A stretch of DNA of 11,244 nucleotides from Archangium sp. (lineage in GTDB: Bacteria; Myxococcota; Myxococcia; Myxococcales; Myxococcaceae). The stretch spans positions 1 to 11,244 of the forward strand of contig JANLPS010000421.1 in the NCBI GenBank assembly GCA_031367385.1, in the 5' to 3' direction. Numbering within the stretch: the first letter of the stretch is position 1; every line of letters starts with the position of its first letter. Positions 1 to 11,244 of this stretch are shown here, one piece after another. The notes below the pieces were generated by a model, which saw only the letters and a program-made list of their open reading frames with translations, was not told the DNA's origin and did not search any database. Made by a program: the position numbers and the translations under genes.

Positions 1-830
1 GCGGCGCCAGGCACGAGGCCGTTCTTCGTGTGGCAGCTGATGCAGAAGTCAGTGCCGTGGCAGCGGGCGCACGAGGTCTCGTCAGCGCGAGCCTCGACCG
101 GGTGACGGCTCAGAAAGTCGTTGCGGTGAATGAACATGCGGTCGACCCGCTCCGGCAAAATCGCTTCGATGCGCGTGCTGACGGTCTTCGCGTGGCACTC
201 GCTGCAGAAGGTCTGCTCGTGACAGGTTTCGCAGGCTGCTCCGGCCGAGTGCGCTTCATTGCCGTGCCGCTTCAAGAAGTCGCCGCGGTGACTGAAAGCG
301 GCGACCGGCTTGAGCGGGTACTTCGTCAAATCTTGGTGGCAGACCGAGCAGTTGCCCGCCTCGTACTGGGCCTTGTGCTCGTGGCAGTTCAGGCACGAGT
401 CCATCGTGGGGGGCGTCACTTGGGTGACCAACGGCTCCGGCAGCGAGGTGTGACAGACCGAGCAGTCTTCTTTGACGCGCTCGATGTGCTCGGCGTGGTT
501 CATCTTGAGCTCGCGCTTGGGCGGCGAAAACGTCTTCGGGTGCTCGGGGCTCGTGTGACAGAACGCGCAGTTGCCCTTCTGCTTTTCTTCTTTGTGGCAG
601 CTCAGACACTTTTTCTCGGTGGGGAGATCGACCGTCGAGAGGGTCGTCGACTCGAAGATGGTCTCGTGGCACGTGGCGCAATCGACGTCGGCTTTGGCGT
701 GGCGCGCGTGCGGCACGATGATGTGGTCAGCTCCACGTGCGAAGAGGCCGGTCAGCCCCGCGCAGGCAGCCAGAACCACCGCGCCCACCGCGAGCGGCAT
801 GCGTCGATTCAGAAAACGAGGGGCCGTCAT
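1..830 (-). CDS. Multiheme c-type cytochrome lipoprotein (cytochrome c3/c7-like repeats, at least 10 hemes), 3' end outside window
   Basis: Manual translation from the ATG at 830, which overlaps the porin stop as ATGA: MTAPRFLNRRMPLAVGAVVLAAC (LAAC lipobox, Cys23), then CATCH, CLSCH, CAFCH, CSVCH, CLNCH, CSVCH, CETCH, CSECH, CARCH, CISCH with interspersed distal His. The frame is open to the window edge. Not listed in the ORF track. Confidence 0.95.
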   Translation of the reverse strand, partial: MTAPRFLNRRMPLAVGAVVLAACAGLTGLFARGADHIIVPHARHAKADVDCATCHETIFESTTLSTVDLPTEKKCLSCHKEEKQKGNCAFCHTSPEHPKTFSPPKRELKMNHAEHIERVKEDCSVCHTSLPEPLVTQVTPPTMDSCLNCHEHKAQYEAGNCSVCHQDLTKYPLKPVAAFSHRGDFLKRHGNEAHSAGAACETCHEQTFCSECHAKTVSTRIEAILPERVDRMFIHRNDFLSRHPVEARADETSCARCHGTDFCISCHTKNGLVPGA

Positions 831-2739: not shown

Positions 2740-5538
2740 ATGACTGCGAACCGGTACACGCGTGTGACGGCGATGTTTTTTCTTGCGACGTTGGCGGGGC
2801 CAGCGTGCTCTGGGCCTGCGAGCTCACCTGGCAAGCCATGCACGGTGACGGCGAATGACAATGGTACCGCGACCGTGTTGTGCCCCGATGGCAGCAAGAC
2901 GATTCTGACCAACGGTGCCAACGGCACGAATGGCACGATCGGAGTCAACGGCACGAACGGCACCTCGTGCTCGTTGTTCGTCAGCGATGCGGGCGGCAAG
3001 ACCATCACCTGCACCGATGGCACGAGCGTCACCGTGACCGACGGTCAAAACGGAGTCGATGGCAACGCGATGATCGATTTTTCTACCCTCACGCCCGTAG
3101 AGCAGAATGGCCTCGACCTCTCGGTGACCGTGAGCAGCATCACCAACGACGCGCGCCCGGTCGCGACATTCGCCGTGCGCAACTCGAAGGGCCAGCCGGT
3201 GAAGAACATCCCCCCTGCTGACTTCTCGGGGTTGGCGCTGCTGCAGTTGGTGCCCGGTGACCTGGGCCCCACCGGCAACGGCGTCGCCAACGACACGTGG
3301 GTTTCGCACATCACCAATTGCGCGACCTGCGTAACGTCGACCGAGACGGCCAACGCTGCACAGTTGATTGACGCTGCCAACGGTACCTATCGGTACACCT
3401 TCGCCAAAGACATCAAGAACCCGACCCCGTACGACGGCGGTCAGGCCATCGCTGGAGTGGCCTTCGACGCCAATGCGGTGCATCGGTTCGGCATGCGCAT
3501 CGCCACCAGCAGCAACTCATTTCGACCCGTCGACGTCGTCTATGACTACGTGCCGGCCACGGGCGCGGTGGTGACTGGCGAGAACGACAAGGTGGCGACC
3601 GCGACGTGCCTTGGCTGCCATCAGCAGTGGCGTGCGAACCCGCTCAACGCCGGCGGCGTCACTCCGTTTCACAACGGTCAGCGCTACGAAGTGCAGTACT
3701 GCGTGGTGTGTCACAACGAGCAACGCAAGTATTCGGGCACGCTGATCTCTGGCAACTCGGTCATCGCCGAGCCCACCATCGATGGCGAGGGCATGATGAC
3801 TCCGCCCAGTGGGCAGACCAGCGTTCGGGTGCTCAAGGGCCAAGCGGTGCTGCACCTGCCGGTGTTCATTCACAAGATTCACATGGGCGATCGGCTGACG
3901 CTGAAGGGCCCGTACGCGGGCCTCGGCACCGAGCTGAATGAAATCGCCTTCCCCCAGAGCCCCGCGAACTGCAAGACGTGCCACATCAACGCCGCGCTGG
4001 CTGATCACTGGCAAGGCCAGCCCAGCCGCCGCGCGTGTGGCTCGTGCCATGACGCCGTCGACTTCGTGACTGGCGCGAATCACACTGGAGGGCCGCAAGC
4101 CGACGATAAGGTGTGCGCTGTGTGTCACAGCCAGGCTGGCATCGCCGCGGCCCACGTGCCGCTCGAGCCGCCAGACCCGGCGAATATTTATTCGACTCCG
4201 GTCGGGGGCAACAACTACACCAACGCGTCGTGGTTGGGCAACCCGCTCACCCCGCCGCCGGGCGCGAAGGTCGTTTCGTACTCGATGCCGAAGAGCGCGG
4301 TGAGCACCGTTGACGCAGGCGCTGGCAACGTCTTCGCAAGAGTGAAGTTTGTGTTTTTGATCAACGATGCAGGCGTGGTGTTCAACGCGTCGAACGGTAC
4401 CAATGAGTTGATCGACGGCTTCACCGGCTCGCCGAGCGTCACGTGTGCGTTCGCGATGCCGCAAGATGGGCTCGCTGCTCCGGGCGATTTCAATGTGCAG
4501 ATCAACGGCTATCTGAAGACCCTCTGGCGAGGCACGGCGACTGGAGCGGGAGCGGGCAACCTGACGGGGCCAGACACCAGCGGGTACTACACGGCGACGC
4601 TGACCGGCGTGGCGATACCGCCCGCTGCGACGATGCTGACCTGCGGCGTGGGCTACAGCTACGCGCTCGCCGCCACCCAACCCCTGACGCAGATCGATTT
4701 GCCGGGCGAGCTGGCGTACGACGCTGGCACCAGGGTCGGTGGGCTGAGCGTGCCCGCGGCGAACATCTGGCAAGTGGCCGCTGGCTACACCGGGCGCCGG
4801 GGCTCGACCAACAGCGCGGTGGCCGCAGGGCAAATCGTCAGCACGGCCAAGTGCAACAACTGCCACAACCGGCTCGGCGTCGCGCCGACCTTTCACGTAG
4901 GGCAGCGAAACGATGCCCCGACGTGCTCGTTCTGCCACACGCCCAACAAAACCAGCAGCGGCTGGTCGGCCGGCTCAGAGAGCTTCGTGCACGCGATTCA
5001 CGGTGCTGGGGTGCGACGAGTCCCCTTCAACTGGCACGCGATCTCTGAAGACGAGGGCTTCTACAAGATCGCTTTCCCCGGGCGGCCTCAGCTGTGTGAG
5101 GGCTGTCACAACGCGGGGTACTTCGACTTCAGCGCTGCTTGGTACACCGACGAGCGGGTGGCGAGCCGGTTGATGCAAACGGTCGCGACTGGCACCTTCA
5201 ACAGCAGCCCGACGCTGGCCGACGGTGGCGTCAACAGCGCCTCGTGGGCGGTCTCACCGTACGTGAATGGTGACGGTGGCGTGAACTACGGAGCCGCGTA
5301 CGCCTACAACACGACCAGCATGGTGGTGACCGAGGCCTCGCCCAACACGTTGGCCAACTCACCCATCTCGAATGCGTGCTTCGGCTGCCATGACGCTCCG
5401 ACCGCGATTGCTCACATGCGCACCAATGGCGGTCTGATTTACGCGCCGAGACCCGCCGTCGCTGCGTCGACCGAGCAGTGTCTGATCTGTCACGGGCCGG
5501 GCCGCATGGCGGCTATTCGAGACGTGCACGCCCGATAG
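2740..5538 (+). CDS. OmcA/MtrC-family decaheme outer-surface cytochrome c lipoprotein, 932 aa
   Basis: ATG at 2740 with AGGAG RBS (2729-2733). Signal peptide ends in LAGPAC (Cys23). 5+5 heme layout: CLGCH, CVVCH, CKTCH, CGSCH, CAVCH, then a heme-free domain, then CNNCH, CSFCH, CEGCH, CFGCH, CLICH. Family-typical segments NGTYRYTF, FIHKIHMG, FPQSPANC, PSRRACGSCH, FVHAIH, HMRTNGG, EQCLICHGPG. Confidence 0.93.
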   Translation: MTANRYTRVTAMFFLATLAGPACSGPASSPGKPCTVTANDNGTATVLCPDGSKTILTNGANGTNGTIGVNGTNGTSCSLFVSDAGGKTITCTDGTSVTVTDGQNGVDGNAMIDFSTLTPVEQNGLDLSVTVSSITNDARPVATFAVRNSKGQPVKNIPPADFSGLALLQLVPGDLGPTGNGVANDTWVSHITNCATCVTSTETANAAQLIDAANGTYRYTFAKDIKNPTPYDGGQAIAGVAFDANAVHRFGMRIATSSNSFRPVDVVYDYVPATGAVVTGENDKVATATCLGCHQQWRANPLNAGGVTPFHNGQRYEVQYCVVCHNEQRKYSGTLISGNSVIAEPTIDGEGMMTPPSGQTSVRVLKGQAVLHLPVFIHKIHMGDRLTLKGPYAGLGTELNEIAFPQSPANCKTCHINAALADHWQGQPSRRACGSCHDAVDFVTGANHTGGPQADDKVCAVCHSQAGIAAAHVPLEPPDPANIYSTPVGGNNYTNASWLGNPLTPPPGAKVVSYSMPKSAVSTVDAGAGNVFARVKFVFLINDAGVVFNASNGTNELIDGFTGSPSVTCAFAMPQDGLAAPGDFNVQINGYLKTLWRGTATGAGAGNLTGPDTSGYYTATLTGVAIPPAATMLTCGVGYSYALAATQPLTQIDLPGELAYDAGTRVGGLSVPAANIWQVAAGYTGRRGSTNSAVAAGQIVSTAKCNNCHNRLGVAPTFHVGQRNDAPTCSFCHTPNKTSSGWSAGSESFVHAIHGAGVRRVPFNWHAISEDEGFYKIAFPGRPQLCEGCHNAGYFDFSAAWYTDERVASRLMQTVATGTFNSSPTLADGGVNSASWAVSPYVNGDGGVNYGAAYAYNTTSMVVTEASPNTLANSPISNACFGCHDAPTAIAHMRTNGGLIYAPRPAVAASTEQCLICHGPGRMAAIRDVHAR
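2839..3066 (+). repeat. Two C-x13-C-x-DG modules separated by a Gly-x-y (NGT) collagen-like run at the cytochrome N-terminus
   Basis: CTVTANDNGTATVLCPDGS and CSLFVSDAGGKTITCTDGT flank NGANGTNGTIGVNGTNGT (2911-2964, degenerate 9-nt repeats). Confidence 0.75.
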
Positions 5539-5656: not shown

Positions 5657-5677
5657 CCAGCGCAAAACCTGCGCTGG
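5657..5677. promoter_or_regulatory. Perfect 8-bp-arm palindrome, candidate enhancer-binding-protein site
   Basis: CCAGCGCA-AAACC-TGCGCTGG, centred about 117 bp upstream of the start inferred from the sigma-54-like element. No U-tract follows. Confidence 0.5.
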
Positions 5678-5757: not shown

Positions 5758-5773
5758 GGGCACGCGGCTCGCA
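5758..5773 (+). promoter_or_regulatory. Sigma-54 (RpoN) -24/-12-like promoter
   Basis: GGGCACG-CGGC-TCGCA versus consensus TGGCACG-N4-TTGCW, with exact GG-N10-GC spacing (GG 5759-5760, GC 5771-5772). Confidence 0.55.
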
Positions 5774-5784
5774 TCACCAGGGCC

Positions 5785-6336
5785 ATGGCCCAAGACAATC
5801 TTGAAATACCCGCAGTCGCTCCGGCGCTTCATCGAAGCCACGCGATGCATCGCGACAGCGAAGCCGCCGCGTTGGCGCTGCGCGAAGCGGAGGCCGAGCT
5901 GTTGCGGCGGAAAACCCGACGTCAGCACCAACAGGCACAGCTCTATTCGGTGGGTCGCATGCTGTTGGCGATGCTCTTCGTGGTCAGCGCGCTGGTCAAA
6001 GTCAGCACCTTCGCAGCGACCCGAGACGCGTTGGCCACCAGCGGCATCGCTGACAGCGCGTTCGTGCTGAGCGCCGGCATCACCCTCGAGCTGGTGCTCG
6101 GCGGGCTGCTGATGGTCGGCCTGCAGACCCGCGGCGTGGCGGTGGCTCTCATCGCCTACCTCGCCTGCGCGACCGTATTGGTGCTGCACGACCTGAACGT
6201 TGGCTTCAACGCGACCTTTGCCATGAACAACGTCGGGCTGTGCGGAGGCCTGCTGATGCTGATGGGCCATGGTGGCGGCGTCTGGAGCATCGACCGTCTT
6301 CTCGAGCACCGGAGCGCTCGCCAATTTCGGGCCTGA
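5785..6336 (+). CDS. DoxX-family membrane protein
   Basis: GRMLLAMLFVVSALVK...LELVLGGLLMVGLQTRGVA...NNVGLCGGLLMLMGHGGGVWSID is the DoxX pattern, with about 4 TM helices. Start uncertain (ATG 5785 preferred, 5845 alternative). Confidence 0.88.
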   Translation: MAQDNLEIPAVAPALHRSHAMHRDSEAAALALREAEAELLRRKTRRQHQQAQLYSVGRMLLAMLFVVSALVKVSTFAATRDALATSGIADSAFVLSAGITLELVLGGLLMVGLQTRGVAVALIAYLACATVLVLHDLNVGFNATFAMNNVGLCGGLLMLMGHGGGVWSIDRLLEHRSARQFRA

Positions 6337-6343
6337 GGACTCC

Positions 6344-7273
6344 ATGCGCCGCGCCCTGCAGCCGCTCGACATCACTCTGCGGCATGGCCGCCTGTACCAG
6401 TGGGTGCGCCGGCTCTTCTTGGGTTTCTCGGTCTCACTGACCTTTTTCTTGCCGCTGTGGCACTTGCACGCCGGTGACGTGGTTGGCAGCGGCCTCGCCG
6501 GTGACAGGCCGTGGGCTGGCCTGGCTTCGCTCCTGCCTGATCGCGCGCCGCCGCTGATCGGGGCCCCCACGTCGATCTCCTTCTTCGGCGTCGAGCTGCT
6601 CGACCCGGCGATGGCGCTCGGAGTCGCGTTGGTTCGCGGCGTCGACATGAATTGGCTGTGGGCCGTCGGGCCGGGGCTGATACTGGTCGCGGTGCTGGGC
6701 AGGTTCTTCTGCGGGTGGGCCTGCCCCTATCTGCCAATTCTCGCCGCCAGCAACGCAGCCCGGTGGTTTCTCAGCAGGCTCGGCGTGCCGATGGCCGACC
6801 TGAAGGTGCCCCGCCTGACGTCGCGGGTCGTGCTGGTCGGCGTGCTCATCGCCACGGCGTTCACCGGCCTGCAAGTGATGCCGCTGGTCTACCCACCCGC
6901 GCTGATCGGCCGCGCTGCTTTTCACGCGATCTTCTTCGGGTCGCTCGGCCTGGGGGCGTTGCTGGTCATGGCGGCGTTTCTCTTCGACACCCTGGTGTCA
7001 CGCGCGGGGTTCTGTCGCTCGCTGTGCCCGGGCGGGGCGATGTTCTCTCTCATCGGCAGCGCGTCGGTCGTCTCGGTGAAGCGCGAGGTCTCCAAGTGCA
7101 CCGACTGCACGGTCTGCGACGTGGTGTGCAATCTCGGTCAACGCCCGATGACCGACCGGCTCGACGGCGGCTGCGAGCGCTGCGGCAAGTGCATCGCCGC
7201 GTGCCCGACCGGGGCGCTCTCCTGGGGCTTCGGCAAACCCGCGATGCTCCGCGGCTCCGCGGAGCGCCCTTGA
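6344..7273 (+). CDS. NapH/MauN-family membrane ferredoxin (quinol dehydrogenase membrane subunit), 309 aa
   Basis: ATG at 6344 after GAGGA. TM helices, two CxxxCP motifs (GRFFCGWACP, FCRSLCPGG) and two C-terminal 4Fe-4S motifs (CTDCTVCDVVC, CERCGKCIAACP). Confidence 0.9.
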   Translation: MRRALQPLDITLRHGRLYQWVRRLFLGFSVSLTFFLPLWHLHAGDVVGSGLAGDRPWAGLASLLPDRAPPLIGAPTSISFFGVELLDPAMALGVALVRGVDMNWLWAVGPGLILVAVLGRFFCGWACPYLPILAASNAARWFLSRLGVPMADLKVPRLTSRVVLVGVLIATAFTGLQVMPLVYPPALIGRAAFHAIFFGSLGLGALLVMAAFLFDTLVSRAGFCRSLCPGGAMFSLIGSASVVSVKREVSKCTDCTVCDVVCNLGQRPMTDRLDGGCERCGKCIAACPTGALSWGFGKPAMLRGSAERP

Positions 7274-7854
7274 ATCGGCGGCGGCTGGTCGGTGCCTTGG
7301 CCGCCGCGCTCGCATTGACCGCGGTGCCGAAACGAGCCCTCGCCGAACGAAGGATTCGGCCTCCAGGGGCGCTCCCGCCTGGGGCCTTCGAGCAAGCGTG
7401 CGTGGGCTGTTACCGATGTGCCGAGGTGTGCCCCACTCGGTGCATCGCGTTTCCCTCTGGGTTGACGCTCGAGCAAACGCTGCCTCAGCTCGACTTGTCT
7501 TCGAGGGCCTGCGTGCTGTGTATGCAGTGCACCCAGGTCTGCCCGACTGATGCCCTGGTGCCCATTCTGGCCGACACCGAAACGGTCGCTTCGCAGGTGC
7601 GAATGGGGGTGCCGGTGCTCACCCGCTCGAAGTGCCTGCCGTGGACTGGCGCAGGCATCTGCCGGCTCTGCTACCAGGTCTGCCCCTACCCTGACCGCGC
7701 GGTCGAGCTGGTCGGGCCGCAAAAGGCGCCCCTGTTTCACGCGGAGGCCTGTGTGGGGTGCGGGCTGTGCGAAGAAGCCTGCCCCGACAAGGCTTCGGCG
7801 ATCGTGATTGAGCCACTGGGTACGGTCGGGCCCGTTGTGCGAGGCGCGCCGTGA
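7270..7854 (+). CDS. NapG/MauM-family Tat-exported polyferredoxin (4 x 4Fe-4S), about 194 aa
   Basis: TTG start overlaps the upstream stop (TTGA), with GGAG at 7261-7264. Twin-arginine leader MNRRRLV...ALA, IRPPGA signature, and Cys groups CVGCYRCAEVCP, CVLCMQCTQVCP, C...CRLCYQVCP, CVGCGLCEEACP. This is the 3' half of track ORF 6652..7854. Confidence 0.9.
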   Translation: MNRRRLVGALAAALALTAVPKRALAERRIRPPGALPPGAFEQACVGCYRCAEVCPTRCIAFPSGLTLEQTLPQLDLSSRACVLCMQCTQVCPTDALVPILADTETVASQVRMGVPVLTRSKCLPWTGAGICRLCYQVCPYPDRAVELVGPQKAPLFHAEACVGCGLCEEACPDKASAIVIEPLGTVGPVVRGAP

Positions 7855-10010
7855 GCCGCCCATCGCTCAACACCATCGTGCGCGCCCGGTTCTCGCGCAG
7901 AGACCTGGTCAAGGCTGGGCCCCTCGTTGCGGTTGCCGCTGGCGCCGTCGGTCTCGGGGTGTGCGGTGACAAGGCCGAGGCCTTGGTGCACACCGACGGC
8001 ACGTGCCGGTTCTGCCTCATGCACTGTGGCATCACGACCGAGGTGCGTGGCACGCACCTGGTGAAGGTCGAGGGCCGGCTCGCGTCGAGAACCCGGGGCT
8101 TTTTGTGCGAGCATGGGTTTGCCCTGCGTGAGGTCGTGCACAGCCACGAACGCCTGCAGCAACCGTTGATTCGCCGCGGAGATGCGTTTCACGAAGTGTC
8201 GTGGCCCGAAGCGCTGGCAGAAGTCGCGCGCCGACTTGAAGCGGTGAAGCGGGCACACGGCCCAGAGGCGTTTGTCATTCGCACCGGGTGGCCGCTGGTT
8301 CGACACCCGCTGGTGAATTTTCTGCACCGCTTCGCGCGGGCGTTCGGTTCTCCAAATGTAGCGACGGTGTCGAGCCTGTGTGAGGCCTCGCTGCGCATGG
8401 GCCAGGCCCTCACGGTCGGCAGCAAATACTCACCAGATCTCCATCAGACCAAGACGCTCTGCGTCTGGGGCGCCAACCCGCCCACTTCAGCTCCGCCGTT
8501 CGCGCACCTGGTATCGGCGAAGGCCACGACCGGCACGTTGATCGTCGTCGACCCGATCAAGACCAACCTGGCCAAAGAAGCGACGCTTCATCTCCAGGTG
8601 CGCCCCGGCTTCGACGGAGCCCTCGCTCTCGGCATGGTCAACGTGGTGATCTCCGAGGGGCTCTACGATGCCGCTTTCGTGGCCCAGCAGACCATCGGGT
8701 TCGAAGCACTGAAGGCGCTCGCCATGCAGTACCCGCTGGCCCGCACCGAGCAGCTCACCTCGGTACCCGCTGAGTCGATTGCGCGCGCGGCGCGAGCGCT
8801 CGCGACGCAGGGCCCGTCTGGCATCTGGGCTGGCCTGGGCGTTGAGCACCACGAGAACGGCGTTCAAGCGATTCGCGCCATTGCCTCACTCGAAGCCCTC
8901 TGCGGCCGGTGGAATGGGCAGCAGAGCCCGCGAACGGTCGTCTCTCCCATGCACGAAGACTTTTTCTCCCAGATGCTTCCCGCGTTGTACGACATGAAGA
9001 CCCCCGAGCCCGTGCCCCCCGCACCTCGTGCACGCGCCCTGGGTCACGGCGCCTTTCCGTTGTTCGAGATGTACAACCGCGAAGCGCAGGGCGAGCTGCT
9101 GGCCGACGCGATTCTCGACGACACGCCGTACCCGGTGCGCGCGCTGATGCTGGTCGCCAGCAACGCGTTGATCACATCACAAGGGGGCGCACGGCTCGAG
9201 AAAGCCTTCGACGCGCTCGAGGTGGTGGTCGTGGTCGACCCATTCTTCACCGCTTCTGCGCAGCGCGCCGACATCGTGTTGCCCTCGACCACCTTTGCTG
9301 AATCACTCGATGTCGACGACGCCGCCGCCGTCGCGCGCGGCAGTCTGGTGCCAGTGCAGCATGGTGCGAGGCCTGACTTCACCATTCTGACCGAGCTGGC
9401 CCGCGTGATGGGGCTCGGTCACTACTTCCCGTGGCAGAATTTGCACGAGGCGATCTCCGCGCCCCACGTACCGTGGATGACCGACCCTCGGTCTCAACCG
9501 CTCCCCAGACCCGAGACCGCGACGCCCACCTTCGGCACACTTTCGGGCAAAGCCGAGTTCACCAGCCGACTGCTGCCCGAGTTTGGGCACCCAGCGCTTC
9601 CGGAGTTTACGGCGCCAACCGAGCCGCTCACGCCCGAGTTTCCGGTGAGGTTGATCACAGGGCCCCGTCCGCGGGCGTACATCAACTCCCAATTTCGCGG
9701 GGCACCGAGCATCAAGGCTCGAATGCGAGAGGCCGAGGTGATGATGCACCCCCAGGTTGCTGCGCGCTTCGAGGTGACCCACAACCAGCTCGTCATGCTC
9801 GTCTCACCGCATGGGCGCCTGACGTTGCGCGCAGTGGTGACCGCCGACGTGCACCCGGAGTGCGTGGTGATCTCAGCCGGGTGGGCCACCGCCAACGCCA
9901 ATCGCCTCATCTCGCCCGATAAACGAGACCCCATCAGTGGGTTTCCCGCATTTCGGTCGGGCGTCTGCCGTGTCGAGCCAGCCACGTCAGCGACTCCAGC
10001 GACCGAGTGA
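7851..10010 (+). CDS. DMSO-reductase-superfamily Mo/W-bisPGD oxidoreductase catalytic subunit with Tat signal, substrate unknown, 719 aa
   Basis: GTG start overlaps the upstream stop (GTGA). SRRDLVK Tat motif, FS0 motif C-x2-C-x3-C-x26-C, and ERLQQPLIR, VSWPEAL, RFARAFGSPN-SSLC, WGANP, VVDP, RPGFDGALALGM, DPFFTASAQRADIVLP. C-terminal dinucleotide-binding domain (MHPQVA, SPHG, GW-NAN). Confidence 0.93.
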   Translation: MSRPSLNTIVRARFSRRDLVKAGPLVAVAAGAVGLGVCGDKAEALVHTDGTCRFCLMHCGITTEVRGTHLVKVEGRLASRTRGFLCEHGFALREVVHSHERLQQPLIRRGDAFHEVSWPEALAEVARRLEAVKRAHGPEAFVIRTGWPLVRHPLVNFLHRFARAFGSPNVATVSSLCEASLRMGQALTVGSKYSPDLHQTKTLCVWGANPPTSAPPFAHLVSAKATTGTLIVVDPIKTNLAKEATLHLQVRPGFDGALALGMVNVVISEGLYDAAFVAQQTIGFEALKALAMQYPLARTEQLTSVPAESIARAARALATQGPSGIWAGLGVEHHENGVQAIRAIASLEALCGRWNGQQSPRTVVSPMHEDFFSQMLPALYDMKTPEPVPPAPRARALGHGAFPLFEMYNREAQGELLADAILDDTPYPVRALMLVASNALITSQGGARLEKAFDALEVVVVVDPFFTASAQRADIVLPSTTFAESLDVDDAAAVARGSLVPVQHGARPDFTILTELARVMGLGHYFPWQNLHEAISAPHVPWMTDPRSQPLPRPETATPTFGTLSGKAEFTSRLLPEFGHPALPEFTAPTEPLTPEFPVRLITGPRPRAYINSQFRGAPSIKARMREAEVMMHPQVAARFEVTHNQLVMLVSPHGRLTLRAVVTADVHPECVVISAGWATANANRLISPDKRDPISGFPAFRSGVCRVEPATSATPATE

Positions 10011-10497: not shown

Positions 10498-11244
10498 TTA
10501 GGGCGTACGAAGCCCCGGGGCCGGTGCGGTCTCGGTCGCTGCCCCTTGCATTCGGTAGAGCGCGAGCAGCCAGGCGCCGGCTGAAGCGATGAACGCCACC
10601 GCGGCGAGGGTCATCCACTTCAGGTAATTTGCGGAGTCGAGCTGCATCATCACGCGCGCGATCATCGCGACCCACGTGCCAGCGGCCATCGCAATGGTCG
10701 CCTTCGCCCACCCCTGCAGCCACGCCTGGTGACCGCCATGTGCCGCCATCACGTGGTGCCCGATGGTCATCGACAGCAAGCTGAAGCCGCCGATGAAGAT
10801 GACGTGCAAGCCCGCTGAGCGCTGCATTGGCCACAGCGTCAAGAGCAGGTACCCCACCGGCAGGCACCACGCAGCGAACCACACCAGGCGCCGGTTCAAC
10901 CCTGGCTCGGTCGGCCACACCCACAGGCGCGCACCGCGCACCAGCACTGCACTGGCGACCACCAGCCGCAAGCCGTACCCCACGCGCATCGAAGCCATCG
11001 GCTCAGCCTGAATGACGAAGCTCGCGGCGAACGCGACGGCGAGCGCTCCATGCAGAATCAGCGCATCACGGGTGAGCGGCTTGGGGGGCTCGGCGCGAGT
11101 CACCACCGGCACCAACATGGCCCCGATGCCCATCACCAGCGAGGCCATCAGCCCCTCGAGCAGCAACCCCTTGCCCAGCGCGTGCAAGCTCGGCATCGCG
11201 GTCAAGACCGCGCCGATCAACCCGAAACCCAAGCCCAGCGGTAC
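10498..11244 (-). CDS. nnrS: NnrS-family membrane protein, 5' end outside window
   Basis: The frame is open to the window edge. Multi-TM protein with AGLHVIFIGGFSLLSMTIGHHVMAAHGG, matching the NnrS LH..IGG...V..HGG motif, followed by the A-R-V helix and a terminal W-containing helix. Confidence 0.8.
   Translation of the reverse strand, partial: VPLGLGFGLIGAVLTAMPSLHALGKGLLLEGLMASLVMGIGAMLVPVVTRAEPPKPLTRDALILHGALAVAFAASFVIQAEPMASMRVGYGLRLVVASAVLVRGARLWVWPTEPGLNRRLVWFAAWCLPVGYLLLTLWPMQRSAGLHVIFIGGFSLLSMTIGHHVMAAHGGHQAWLQGWAKATIAMAAGTWVAMIARVMMQLDSANYLKWMTLAAVAFIASAGAWLLALYRMQGAATETAPAPGLRTP

What the first reader, a model, noticed from the sequence alone, without database searches (positions are those of the whole stretch)
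6344..10010. NapH-NapG module translationally coupled to a non-NapA Tat molybdoenzyme: candidate undescribed periplasmic reductase
Seen: napH-like, napG-like and Mo-enzyme genes joined by 4-nt overlaps (TTGA 7270, GTGA 7851), in H-G order, with no napB/napC/napD, NrfD-type anchor or TorD chaperone in the operon. Established: NapGH-type quinol dehydrogenases serve NapA and clade II NosZ, and related MauMN occur in methylamine dehydrogenase clusters. NapA has an N-A-R-x-C-M-A-S-A active-site segment. Here the segment is VSSLCEAS (Cys177), with no Met after the Cys, which is closer to polysulfide/thiosulfate-reductase-like or unclassified Cys-ligated clades. Inference: a three-subunit quinol:acceptor oxidoreductase with an unknown substrate (S, Se, As or N oxyanion, or an S/N-oxide).
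Basis: partly seen in the sequence, partly recalled or inferred. Interest (0 to 1): 0.8.

Follow-up and report, generated by a model that had tools for sequence, protein, structure and literature searches.

The report
Myxobacterial low-oxygen molybdenum respiratory module
A conserved three-gene module in uncultured myxobacteria joins a NapH/NapG-type electron feed to an unclassified exported molybdenum enzyme; it is likely switched on at low oxygen and is predicted to let the cell breathe an oxyanion, possibly nitrate, by a route that marker-gene surveys would miss.

Summary
napH-like (6344-7273), napG-like (7270-7854) and a Tat-signal MopB enzyme (7851-10010) overlap by 4 nt. The H-G-Mo order holds in 59 of 63 unique loci (3 cut by contig ends, 1 split), against 1 of 55 outgroup loci. 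The enzyme occurs in 66 of 401 Myxococcota genomes. It is not NapA; its best sequence and fold match is acetylene hydratase, whose catalytic Asp13 it lacks. New here: a sigma-54 promoter and a box matching the M. xanthus low-oxygen regulator NmpR lie upstream (window: 5660-5674, 5759-5772, ahead of an extra doxX gene), and the same layout precedes this genome's nirK. A complex model docks G on the enzyme's Fe-S loop (0.78, controls 0.00). Carriers are enriched in nosZ and nirK (44 of 66 versus 56 of 334; kin-confounded). Best reading: a hypoxia-induced, quinol-fed periplasmic terminal reductase (about 0.75); nitrate is the leading but untested acceptor (about 0.35-0.4). NapGH-like partners of non-NapA enzymes have precedent (DadhG/H), so this is a new variant, not a new kind.

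The parts
5660..5674 (.). Perfect GCGCA-N5-TGCGC palindrome, the published NmpR enhancer consensus (candidate low-oxygen activator site)
   Evidence: consensus from PMC11841059. Only one good site here, whereas bound M. xanthus promoters have two.
5759..5772 (+). Sigma-54 -24/-12 promoter-like box GGCAC-N5-TCGC, 12 nt before the doxX start
   Evidence: same box upstream of the napH-like gene in 33 of 48 relatives vs shuffle mean 6
5785..6336 (+). DoxX-family membrane protein; first gene of the unit in this genome only, not part of the conserved cassette
   Evidence: PF07681; absent next to H in relatives; 80% identical paralogue on contig C238
6344..7273 (+). NapH-like membrane polyferredoxin (309 aa, about 4 hydrophobic segments, 2 CxxxCP, 2 x 4Fe-4S motifs); predicted quinol-oxidising subunit
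7270..7854 (+). NapG-like four-cluster ferredoxin (194 aa, TTG start, twin-arginine-like leader); predicted to dock on the Mo enzyme
7851..10010 (+). Tat-signal MopB (DMSO reductase superfamily) catalytic subunit, 719 aa, acetylene-hydratase-like radiation
7851..7982 (+). Tat signal peptide (SRRDLVK, hydrophobic stretch, AEA); twin Arg in 114 of 120 aligned homologues, the other 6 gapped
8004..8114 (+). FS0 4Fe-4S motif C52/C55/C59/C86; His88 replaces the usual Lys/Arg; Leu56 at the acetylene hydratase Asp13 position
8379..8384 (+). Cys177 (predicted Mo ligand, aligned with AH Cys141, NapA Cys, FdhH Sec) followed by clade-invariant Glu178
10498..11244 (-). NnrS-family gene, convergent, cut by the contig end (context: NO/low-oxygen gene, also near the cassette in G010, G363, G370)

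Best explanation
This is a conserved three-gene module encoding a NapH-like membrane protein, a NapG-like ferredoxin and a Tat-signal molybdenum enzyme, which likely form a low-oxygen-induced periplasmic terminal reductase whose acceptor is an oxyanion, most likely nitrate. Steps: (1, inferred from motif match) when O2 falls, an NmpR-type sigma-54 activator switches the unit on with cbb3 oxidase and nirK; (2, by analogy with NapH) H oxidises quinol in the membrane; (3, modelled) G carries electrons through its four 4Fe-4S clusters and docks its third cluster on the enzyme's FS0 loop, so no NapB cytochrome is needed; (4, by family chemistry) electrons pass FS0 to a Cys177-ligated Mo-bis-MGD centre, which removes an oxygen atom from the substrate, Glu178 serving as the likely proton donor and Arg151/His152/Arg182/Arg410 as possible anion binders. 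Odds: quinol-fed reductase of some acceptor about 0.75; nitrate to nitrite specifically about 0.35-0.4.
For: Linkage 59 of 63 unique loci vs 1 of 55 outgroup loci. Cofactor-binding motifs and Cys177 invariant in 120 of 120; genome has moaA, moeA, modA and a mobA-like gene and only two other MopB-domain genes, one being NuoG. Complex model 0.78 vs best control 0.00 (mark reached by 116 of 157 solved and 2 of 215 mismatched pairs; runs agree in at least 95% of contacts; partner pLDDT at least 86), G residues 128-139 on enzyme residues 81-87. NmpR box (at most 1 mismatch) in 33 of 57 upstream windows vs 29 of 285 coding windows, sigma-54 box 20 of 57 vs 15 of 285. Of 58 perfect boxes in G000, only two have a near-canonical sigma-54 box and an ORF: this unit and nirK. 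nosZ or nirK in 44 of 66 carriers vs 56 of 334 non-carriers, both in 20 of 66 vs 7 of 334 (unpublished G233 left out). nosZ within 10 kb of the cassette in five genomes, nnrS beside it in four. G000 has nirK but no Nap or Nar.
Against: No activity, expression or binding data. The enzyme lacks NapA's Cys-Met and is outside the Nap branch, so nitrate activity would be convergent. 22 of 66 carriers have neither nirK nor nosZ (nrfA checked only in the 61-genome set). G006, a single-contig carrier, has nosZ but no nirK, nrfA or nirS hit (the nirS search had no ringing control). 4 of 17 carriers also have NarG or NapA, and most non-carriers with a nitrite reductase lack Nap/Nar too, so there is no complementary pattern. 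Co-occurrence is confounded by kinship and lifestyle. The window promoter has one NmpR site, not the paired sites of bound M. xanthus promoters; no box was seen within 700 nt upstream of 7 nosZ genes or of the nirK of carrier G030; the control windows were coding, not other intergenic DNA. The complex pass may reflect likeness to solved MopB-ferredoxin pairs. Which conserved residues line the pocket was inferred from alignment, not measured on coordinates. MauMN-type genes also sit in dehydrogenase clusters (recalled), so direction is not fixed by H and G.
Confidence: 0.4

Rival explanations
1. Same module and direction, but the acceptor is not nitrate: an S- or N-oxide (DMSO, methionine sulfoxide, an amine N-oxide), another oxyanion (chlorate, selenate, arsenate, tetrathionate) or an organic acceptor, as in catechol dehydroxylases that need DadhG/H.
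For: Enzyme unrelated to Nap/Nar at family level; the promoter type senses oxygen, not nitrate (PMC11841059); 22 of 66 carriers lack nirK and nosZ; pocket positions are hypervariable across the acetylene-hydratase-like radiation, implying many substrates; DadhG/H precedent; grouping with Psr/Phs not rejected.
Against: No arsenic, selenium, sulfur-transfer or chlorite dismutase family among 133 of 187 neighbour clusters scanned at E 1e-12, plus the recurrent clusters scanned earlier; presence in about one in six Myxococcota genomes argues for a common substrate; thiosulfate/polysulfide reductases use PhsC/NrfD-type anchors (energetics recalled).
Confidence: 0.35
2. The flow runs the other way: a periplasmic dehydrogenase that oxidises a low-potential donor (formate, sulfite, an aldehyde) and feeds quinone through G and H, supplying cbb3, NirK and NosZ under hypoxia.
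For: Best single-sequence PDB hit is FdhH (182 bits vs 173.5 AH) and best NCBIfam score is Fdh-alpha (289 bits, cut-off 666); G000 has no formate dehydrogenase; grouping with Nap+Fdh not rejected (p-AU 0.30); co-occurrence with nosZ fits a donor as well as an acceptor role.
Against: Lacks FdhH's Cys/Sec-His pair (has Cys-Glu) and the RGQNNVQG-type segment; characterised NapGH-type modules serve reductases (NapA, Dadh; NosZ and PceA recalled or from search listings).
Confidence: 0.15
3. The MopB subunit is cofactor-free or non-catalytic (like ActB, QrcB, NuoG) and the module is a general quinol-to-periplasm wire for NosZ, NirK or multiheme cytochromes.
For: His88 replaces the Lys/Arg next to FS0 in 118 of 120 (Lys or Arg in 66 of 70 outgroup rows); no TorD-type chaperone in 5 of 5 carriers; nosZ co-occurrence is the strongest single association.
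Against: Cys177 and the MGD-binding motifs are invariant; Moco synthesis and molybdate uptake genes are present; 27 of 66 carriers, including G000, lack nosZ; clade-specific invariant pocket residues imply catalysis.
Confidence: 0.07
4. It is a divergent member of a characterised family (NapA, or acetylene hydratase proper).
For: NapGH-like neighbours; AH is the top fold match; the 39-row tree test did not reject clade+NapA (p-AU 0.083).
Against: NAPA model 72 bits vs cut-off 931; 24-row test rejects clade+NapA (p-AU 0.0001); no Cys-Met; AH Asp13 is Leu in 111 of 120 and never Asp; AH is cytoplasmic and monomeric (PMC10100899 table, PMC12096430).
Confidence: 0.03

Closest known systems
Periplasmic nitrate reductase with NapGH (E. 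coli napFDAGHBC)
   Same: NapH- and NapG-type subunits (about 30-35% identity to E. coli NapH/NapG); Tat-signal, Cys-ligated MopB subunit with one FS0 cluster.
   Different: Catalytic subunit far below NapA cut-offs, no Cys-Met, separate branch; no NapB, NapC, NapD, NapF; order H-G-Mo; sigma-54/NmpR-type promoter, FNR box in only 3 of 48.
Acetylene hydratase (PDB 2e7z) and its uncharacterised radiation
   Same: Top profile and fold match (574 bits; Z 36.9, rmsd 2.7 A over 630 residues); Cys141 equals Cys177.
   Different: 23-26% identity; Asp13 replaced by Leu, Ile142 by Glu; Tat signal; membrane electron-transfer partners, which 54 of 55 outgroup loci lack.
Eggerthella dopamine dehydroxylase DadhABC with DadhG/DadhH (PMC11887054, passages read)
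   Same: A non-NapA MopB enzyme that needs NapG/NapH-like accessory ferredoxins.
   Different: Dadh also has B and C subunits and a TorD-like chaperone, with G/H predicted to contact B/C; here G is modelled directly on the catalytic subunit and nothing else is conserved. No Dadh sequence was compared.
Polysulfide/thiosulfate reductase PsrABC/PhsABC
   Same: Tat-exported Cys-ligated MopB subunit with a four-cluster ferredoxin partner; second-best profile match (496 bits).
   Different: PhsA model 240 bits vs cut-off 694; NapG/NapH-type rather than PsrB/NrfD-type partners; separate branch in the best trees.
M. xanthus NmpRSTU low-oxygen regulon (PMC11841059, passages and section 22 read)
   Same: GCGCA-N5-TGCGC box plus sigma-54 site; neighbours of the cassette include protoglobin kinases, USP, CBS proteins, globin and P-type ATPases.
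   Different: The regulon members named in the parts read include no terminal reductase ('molybd' 0 occurrences); NmpR orthology and binding not tested here.

Membership tests
MopB / DMSO reductase superfamily | Molybdopterin, Molydop_binding and Fe4S4 domains; MopB fold | tested here: met
   All three Pfam domains over cut-off; model pLDDT 94.5 matches MopB structures at Z 28-37
MopB / DMSO reductase superfamily | Binds Mo/W-bis-MGD | not testable with these tools
   Ligand Cys and motifs conserved; biosynthesis genes present; no metal data
NapA | Score above curated NapA models | tested here: not met
   TIGR01706 72 bits vs 931; NF010055 80 vs 904
NapA | NARxCMASA segment (Cys-Met) | tested here: not met
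   SLCEAS; Glu178 in 120 of 120
NapA | Branches with NapA | tested here: not met
   Separate in all best trees; sister grouping rejected in the 24-row test (p 0.0001) but not in the 39-row test (p 0.083)
NapA | napB/napD in the cluster | tested here: not met
   None in the window or among recurrent neighbours
NapA (works-like claim) | Reduces nitrate to nitrite | not testable with these tools
   Only contextual evidence
Acetylene hydratase | Asp13 after the second FS0 Cys | tested here: not met
   Leu56 (111 of 120; Thr 7, Gln 1, gap 1); role of Asp13 from PMC12096430
Acetylene hydratase | Cytoplasmic monomer without export signal | tested here: not met
   Tat motif conserved; partner genes conserved
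Acetylene-hydratase-like radiation (broad) | Closest solved relative is AH; groups with AH-like proteins | tested here: inconclusive
   AH is top by profile and fold and trees group it with AH-like rows (SH-aLRT 95-96), but real AH was not in the tree and alternatives with Psr or Nap+Fdh were not rejected
PsrA/PhsA | Score above PhsA model; PsrB plus NrfD/PhsC anchor | tested here: not met
   240 vs 694 bits; partners are NapG/NapH-like
Formate dehydrogenase | Cys/Sec-His pair and curated score | tested here: not met
   Cys-Glu; 289 vs 666 bits
ArrA / TtrA / SerA / catechol dehydroxylases | Branches within these families | not tested
   No reference sequences obtained for the tree (one search found no ArrA); model scores are low (ArrA 60, TtrA 43 bits); no model for catechol dehydroxylases was hit
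NapH/MauN and NapG/MauM | Curated score cut-offs | tested here: not met
   110 vs 213 and 63 vs 179 bits, yet these are the best families
NapH/MauN and NapG/MauM | CxxxCP motifs plus two clusters (H); leader, RPPGA and four clusters (G) | tested here: met
NmpR regulon | GCGCA-N5-TGCGC upstream of a sigma-54 site | tested here: met
NmpR regulon | Paired sites 14-15 nt apart; binding; induction by hypoxia | tested here: inconclusive
   One site in the window, pairs in some relatives; binding and induction not testable

The most novel reading that the evidence does not exclude
A third, independently evolved respiratory nitrate reductase (neither Nap nor Nar), built on the acetylene-hydratase-like scaffold, wired directly to a NapGH-type quinol dehydrogenase without cytochromes, and present in about one in six Myxococcota genomes, which surveys now score as unable to reduce nitrate.
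Probability: 0.35. Interest if true: 0.9.

Novelty: new variant of a known kind. Interest (0 to 1): 0.64.

Why it matters
It defines a tight, widespread, uncharacterised family of exported molybdoenzymes with a fixed electron-transfer module and a recognisable promoter, in predatory soil, freshwater and sludge myxobacteria long treated as aerobes. Any substrate found would be a first redox function for this branch of the acetylene-hydratase-like radiation. If the substrate is nitrate, many nirK/nosZ-bearing myxobacteria counted as partial denitrifiers have a hidden first step, which bears on nitrogen and N2O budgets. The enzyme-G pair also offers a minimal system for studying a NapG-type ferredoxin, for which the G profile found no solved close relative.

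Tried and rejected
FNR and CRP boxes upstream of H: 3 of 48 each, near shuffle level. Sigma-70 promoter scan: none. RNA evidence: no RNA holder listed; no evidence either way. Earlier scan findings: three look-ups empty. ArrA reference: none in 151 genomes, no control rang, so a recalled match of Arg182 to an ArrA active-site Lys was dropped; that paper and the original AH structure paper were not held. Complementary distribution with Nap/Nar: not seen. nirS: 0 of 5 carriers, no control rang. Substrate clue from neighbours: none; the cassette moves among unrelated genes apart from low-oxygen genes. doxX as a fourth subunit: rejected, not conserved. Plasmids: no clade member, best hits under 30%. 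The 39-row clade+Psr test did not finish. Literature: searches listed no description of this cassette; most hits were seen as listings and abstract starts only, the library lacks most subscription papers, and the supplements of PMC10100899 (its trees and sequence lists) were not read and may contain members of this clade.


Full report
Observation. H and G score best against NapH/MauN and NapG/MauM but under the curated cut-offs; the third gene carries the three MopB Pfam domains and falls far below every NCBIfam family (Fdh-alpha 289 of 666 bits, PhsA 240 of 694, NapA 72 of 931). The window is a whole contig of a 7.97 Mb, 98% complete genome whose relatives with this gene are titled Myxococcaceae, Myxococcales or Myxococcota MAGs.

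Conservation. A query with a divergent member found one full-length or partial match in each of 66 of 401 Myxococcota genomes, mostly one family but also six others. Of 63 unique loci fetched, 59 have H, G and Mo in that order on one strand (one with a gene inserted between H and G); 3 are cut by contig ends and 1 has H displaced downstream. Of 55 outgroup loci (28-37% identity) with enough upstream DNA, 1 has a NapH-like neighbour. Nothing else is conserved beside the cassette; doxX is specific to this genome. All named carriers seen were MAGs.

What the enzyme is. A profile of the clade plus its nearest outgroups ranks acetylene hydratase first among solved structures (574 bits), then PsrA and an FdhF (496 each), NapA at 357; the single sequence ranks FdhH 182, AH 173.5, PsrA 172. 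The model (pLDDT 94.5) also matches AH best (Foldseek rank 1; Z 36.9 against 33-35 for Fdh, Arr, Psr and Nap). Trees put the Tat-bearing clade (support 99-100) among uncharacterised, mostly leaderless AH-like proteins, apart from NapA, Fdh, Psr/Phs and DmsA/BisC. Constraint tests are mixed: clade+NapA was rejected with 24 rows (p-AU 0.0001) but not with 39 (0.083); clade+Psr (0.26) and clade+Nap+Fdh (0.30) were not rejected. Real AH, ArrA, TtrA and catechol dehydroxylases were not available as rows. Wells et al. (PMC10100899; passages and the first part of section 5 read) report unclassified Cys-ligated lineages from MAGs with AH-like best hits, which is where this family probably belongs. In 120 aligned homologues, Cys177 and the cofactor-binding motifs are invariant or nearly so, as are TGWPxVRHP (145-153), Glu178, Arg182 and Arg410; these last positions are highly variable in 70 outgroup rows, as expected of substrate-specific residues. 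By the alignments, Leu56, Cys177, Glu178 and Pro148/Leu149 correspond to AH Asp13, Cys141, Ile142 and Ile113, all active-site residues in PMC12096430 and PMC7970554 (passages read). So the AH catalytic Asp is missing and a carboxylate sits next to the metal ligand. His88 replaces the Lys/Arg beside FS0 (its electron-transfer role is recalled). The window's copy has Arg144 where 115 of 120 have Gln. The genome encodes moaA, moeA, modA and a below-cut-off mobA-like gene; no TorD-type chaperone was found in 5 of 5 carriers.

Electron path. A complex model of the mature enzyme with G scored 0.78 against a best control of 0.00 (mark reached by 116 of 157 solved and 2 of 215 mismatched pairs; runs agree in at least 95% of contacts; partner pLDDT at least 86), placing G's third cluster motif (residues 128-139) on enzyme residues 81-87 around FS0 ligand Cys86. 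This supports but does not show direct transfer; MopB-ferredoxin pairs are solved and may have been recalled by the model, although the G profile's only PDB hits at E 1e-12 were Fwd/Mvh polyferredoxins.

Regulation. Regions upstream of H carry a sigma-54 box (33 of 48, shuffle mean 6, max 12) and the palindrome CGCA-N5-TGCG (27 of 48); FNR boxes are near chance. The palindrome is the consensus of M. xanthus NmpR, an activator whose targets are induced by hypoxia and include cbb3 oxidase, USP, CBS and hemerythrin genes (PMC11841059; passages and section 22 read). With at most one mismatch it lies in 33 of 57 upstream windows against 29 of 285 coding windows. In the window it is at 5660-5674, 84 nt before a sigma-54 box at 5759-5772. 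Of 58 perfect boxes in the genome, three have a near-canonical sigma-54 box downstream and two of these lead into an ORF: this unit and nirK; two more boxes lie between the cbb3 locus and a protoglobin kinase. Neighbours of the cassette in relatives include protoglobin kinases, USP, CBS, globin, CRP-type and sigma-54 activator genes; G000 has a 74% identical counterpart of that activator, not shown to be NmpR. Against: one site rather than a pair in the window, and no box before 7 nosZ genes or one carrier's nirK.

Substrate. Carriers have clade II nosZ in 39 of 66 and nirK in 25 of 66, non-carriers in 46 and 17 of 334; both genes in 20 of 66 against 7 of 334 (the unpublished genome G233, a non-carrier, is left out). 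Kin are not independent, so no p-value is claimed; one within-genus contrast is notable (the single carrier among 32 genomes of one genus is also its only nirK holder). nosZ lies within 10 kb of the cassette in five genomes and nnrS beside it in four. G000 has nirK but no NapA, NarG, nrfA, nosZ or NO reductase hit. Against nitrate: 22 carriers have neither gene, 4 of 17 in the smaller set already have Nar or Nap, and nitrite reductase without Nap/Nar is common in non-carriers. No arsenic, selenium, sulfur or chlorite genes were seen among the neighbours scanned. Nitrate is therefore the best single guess by abundance, lifestyle and analogy with NapGH, not by active-site likeness.

Comparison and novelty. 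It works like a Nap-type periplasmic reductase in layout but is not a member of NapA, AH, Psr/Phs or Fdh. NapG/NapH-like partners of a non-NapA MopB enzyme are known (DadhG/H, needed for activity; PMC11887054, passages read), and PceMN-type modules appear in search listings. Searches listed no account of this cassette, with the limits given under Tried and rejected. Verdict: a real, widespread, apparently undescribed family and a new variant of a known kind; interest 0.64, rising to 0.9 if it proves to be an independent nitrate reductase (probability about 0.35).

Noticed in passing
window 2740-5538 (+), with 2096-2443, 827-2065 and <1-830 (-): An OmcA/MtrC-family decaheme cytochrome (TIGR03507 over cut-off) is divergent from a small cytochrome c, a 412-aa protein with no Pfam hit (porin-like by eye) and a multiheme cytochrome: a possible porin-cytochrome conduit. 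Two NmpR-type boxes (2547-2561, 2588-2602) lie between them with no canonical sigma-54 box found.
   Followed up: partly
G000:C493:2004-3431: nirK has the same NmpR-box plus sigma-54 layout and a divergent nnrS-like gene nearby, yet no NO reductase was found in the 98% complete genome (only two heme-copper oxidase hits).
   Followed up: partly
window 5785-6336 and G000:C238:12608-13132: Two doxX copies, 80% identical; the second lies near the cbb3 oxidase, USP and protoglobin-kinase locus.
   Followed up: no
L207 (metagenome outgroup locus): A distant (29%) MopB gene also has NapH- and NapG-like genes directly upstream in H-G order: possibly an independent or ancestral pairing.
   Followed up: no
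L162 (G370): Split cassette: G sits 1.5 kb before the Mo gene with another ORF between, and H lies 5.7 kb downstream with its own sigma-54 box.
   Followed up: no
L033:7663-11085 and L034:34-3681: Leaderless acetylene-hydratase-like MopB proteins of 1141-1216 aa, i.e. fused to an extra C-terminal region of about 450 residues.
   Followed up: no
G000:C261:8933-11149 (L077:1324-3540): The genome's only other intact MopB gene is a leaderless, unclassified enzyme directly behind a gene that looks like a lycopene cyclase by eye.
   Followed up: no
window 8280-8282 (residue 144 of the Mo enzyme): Arg here (and in the closest homologue) where 115 of 120 family members have Gln, just before the invariant TGWP segment; may alter the pocket.
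   Followed up: no
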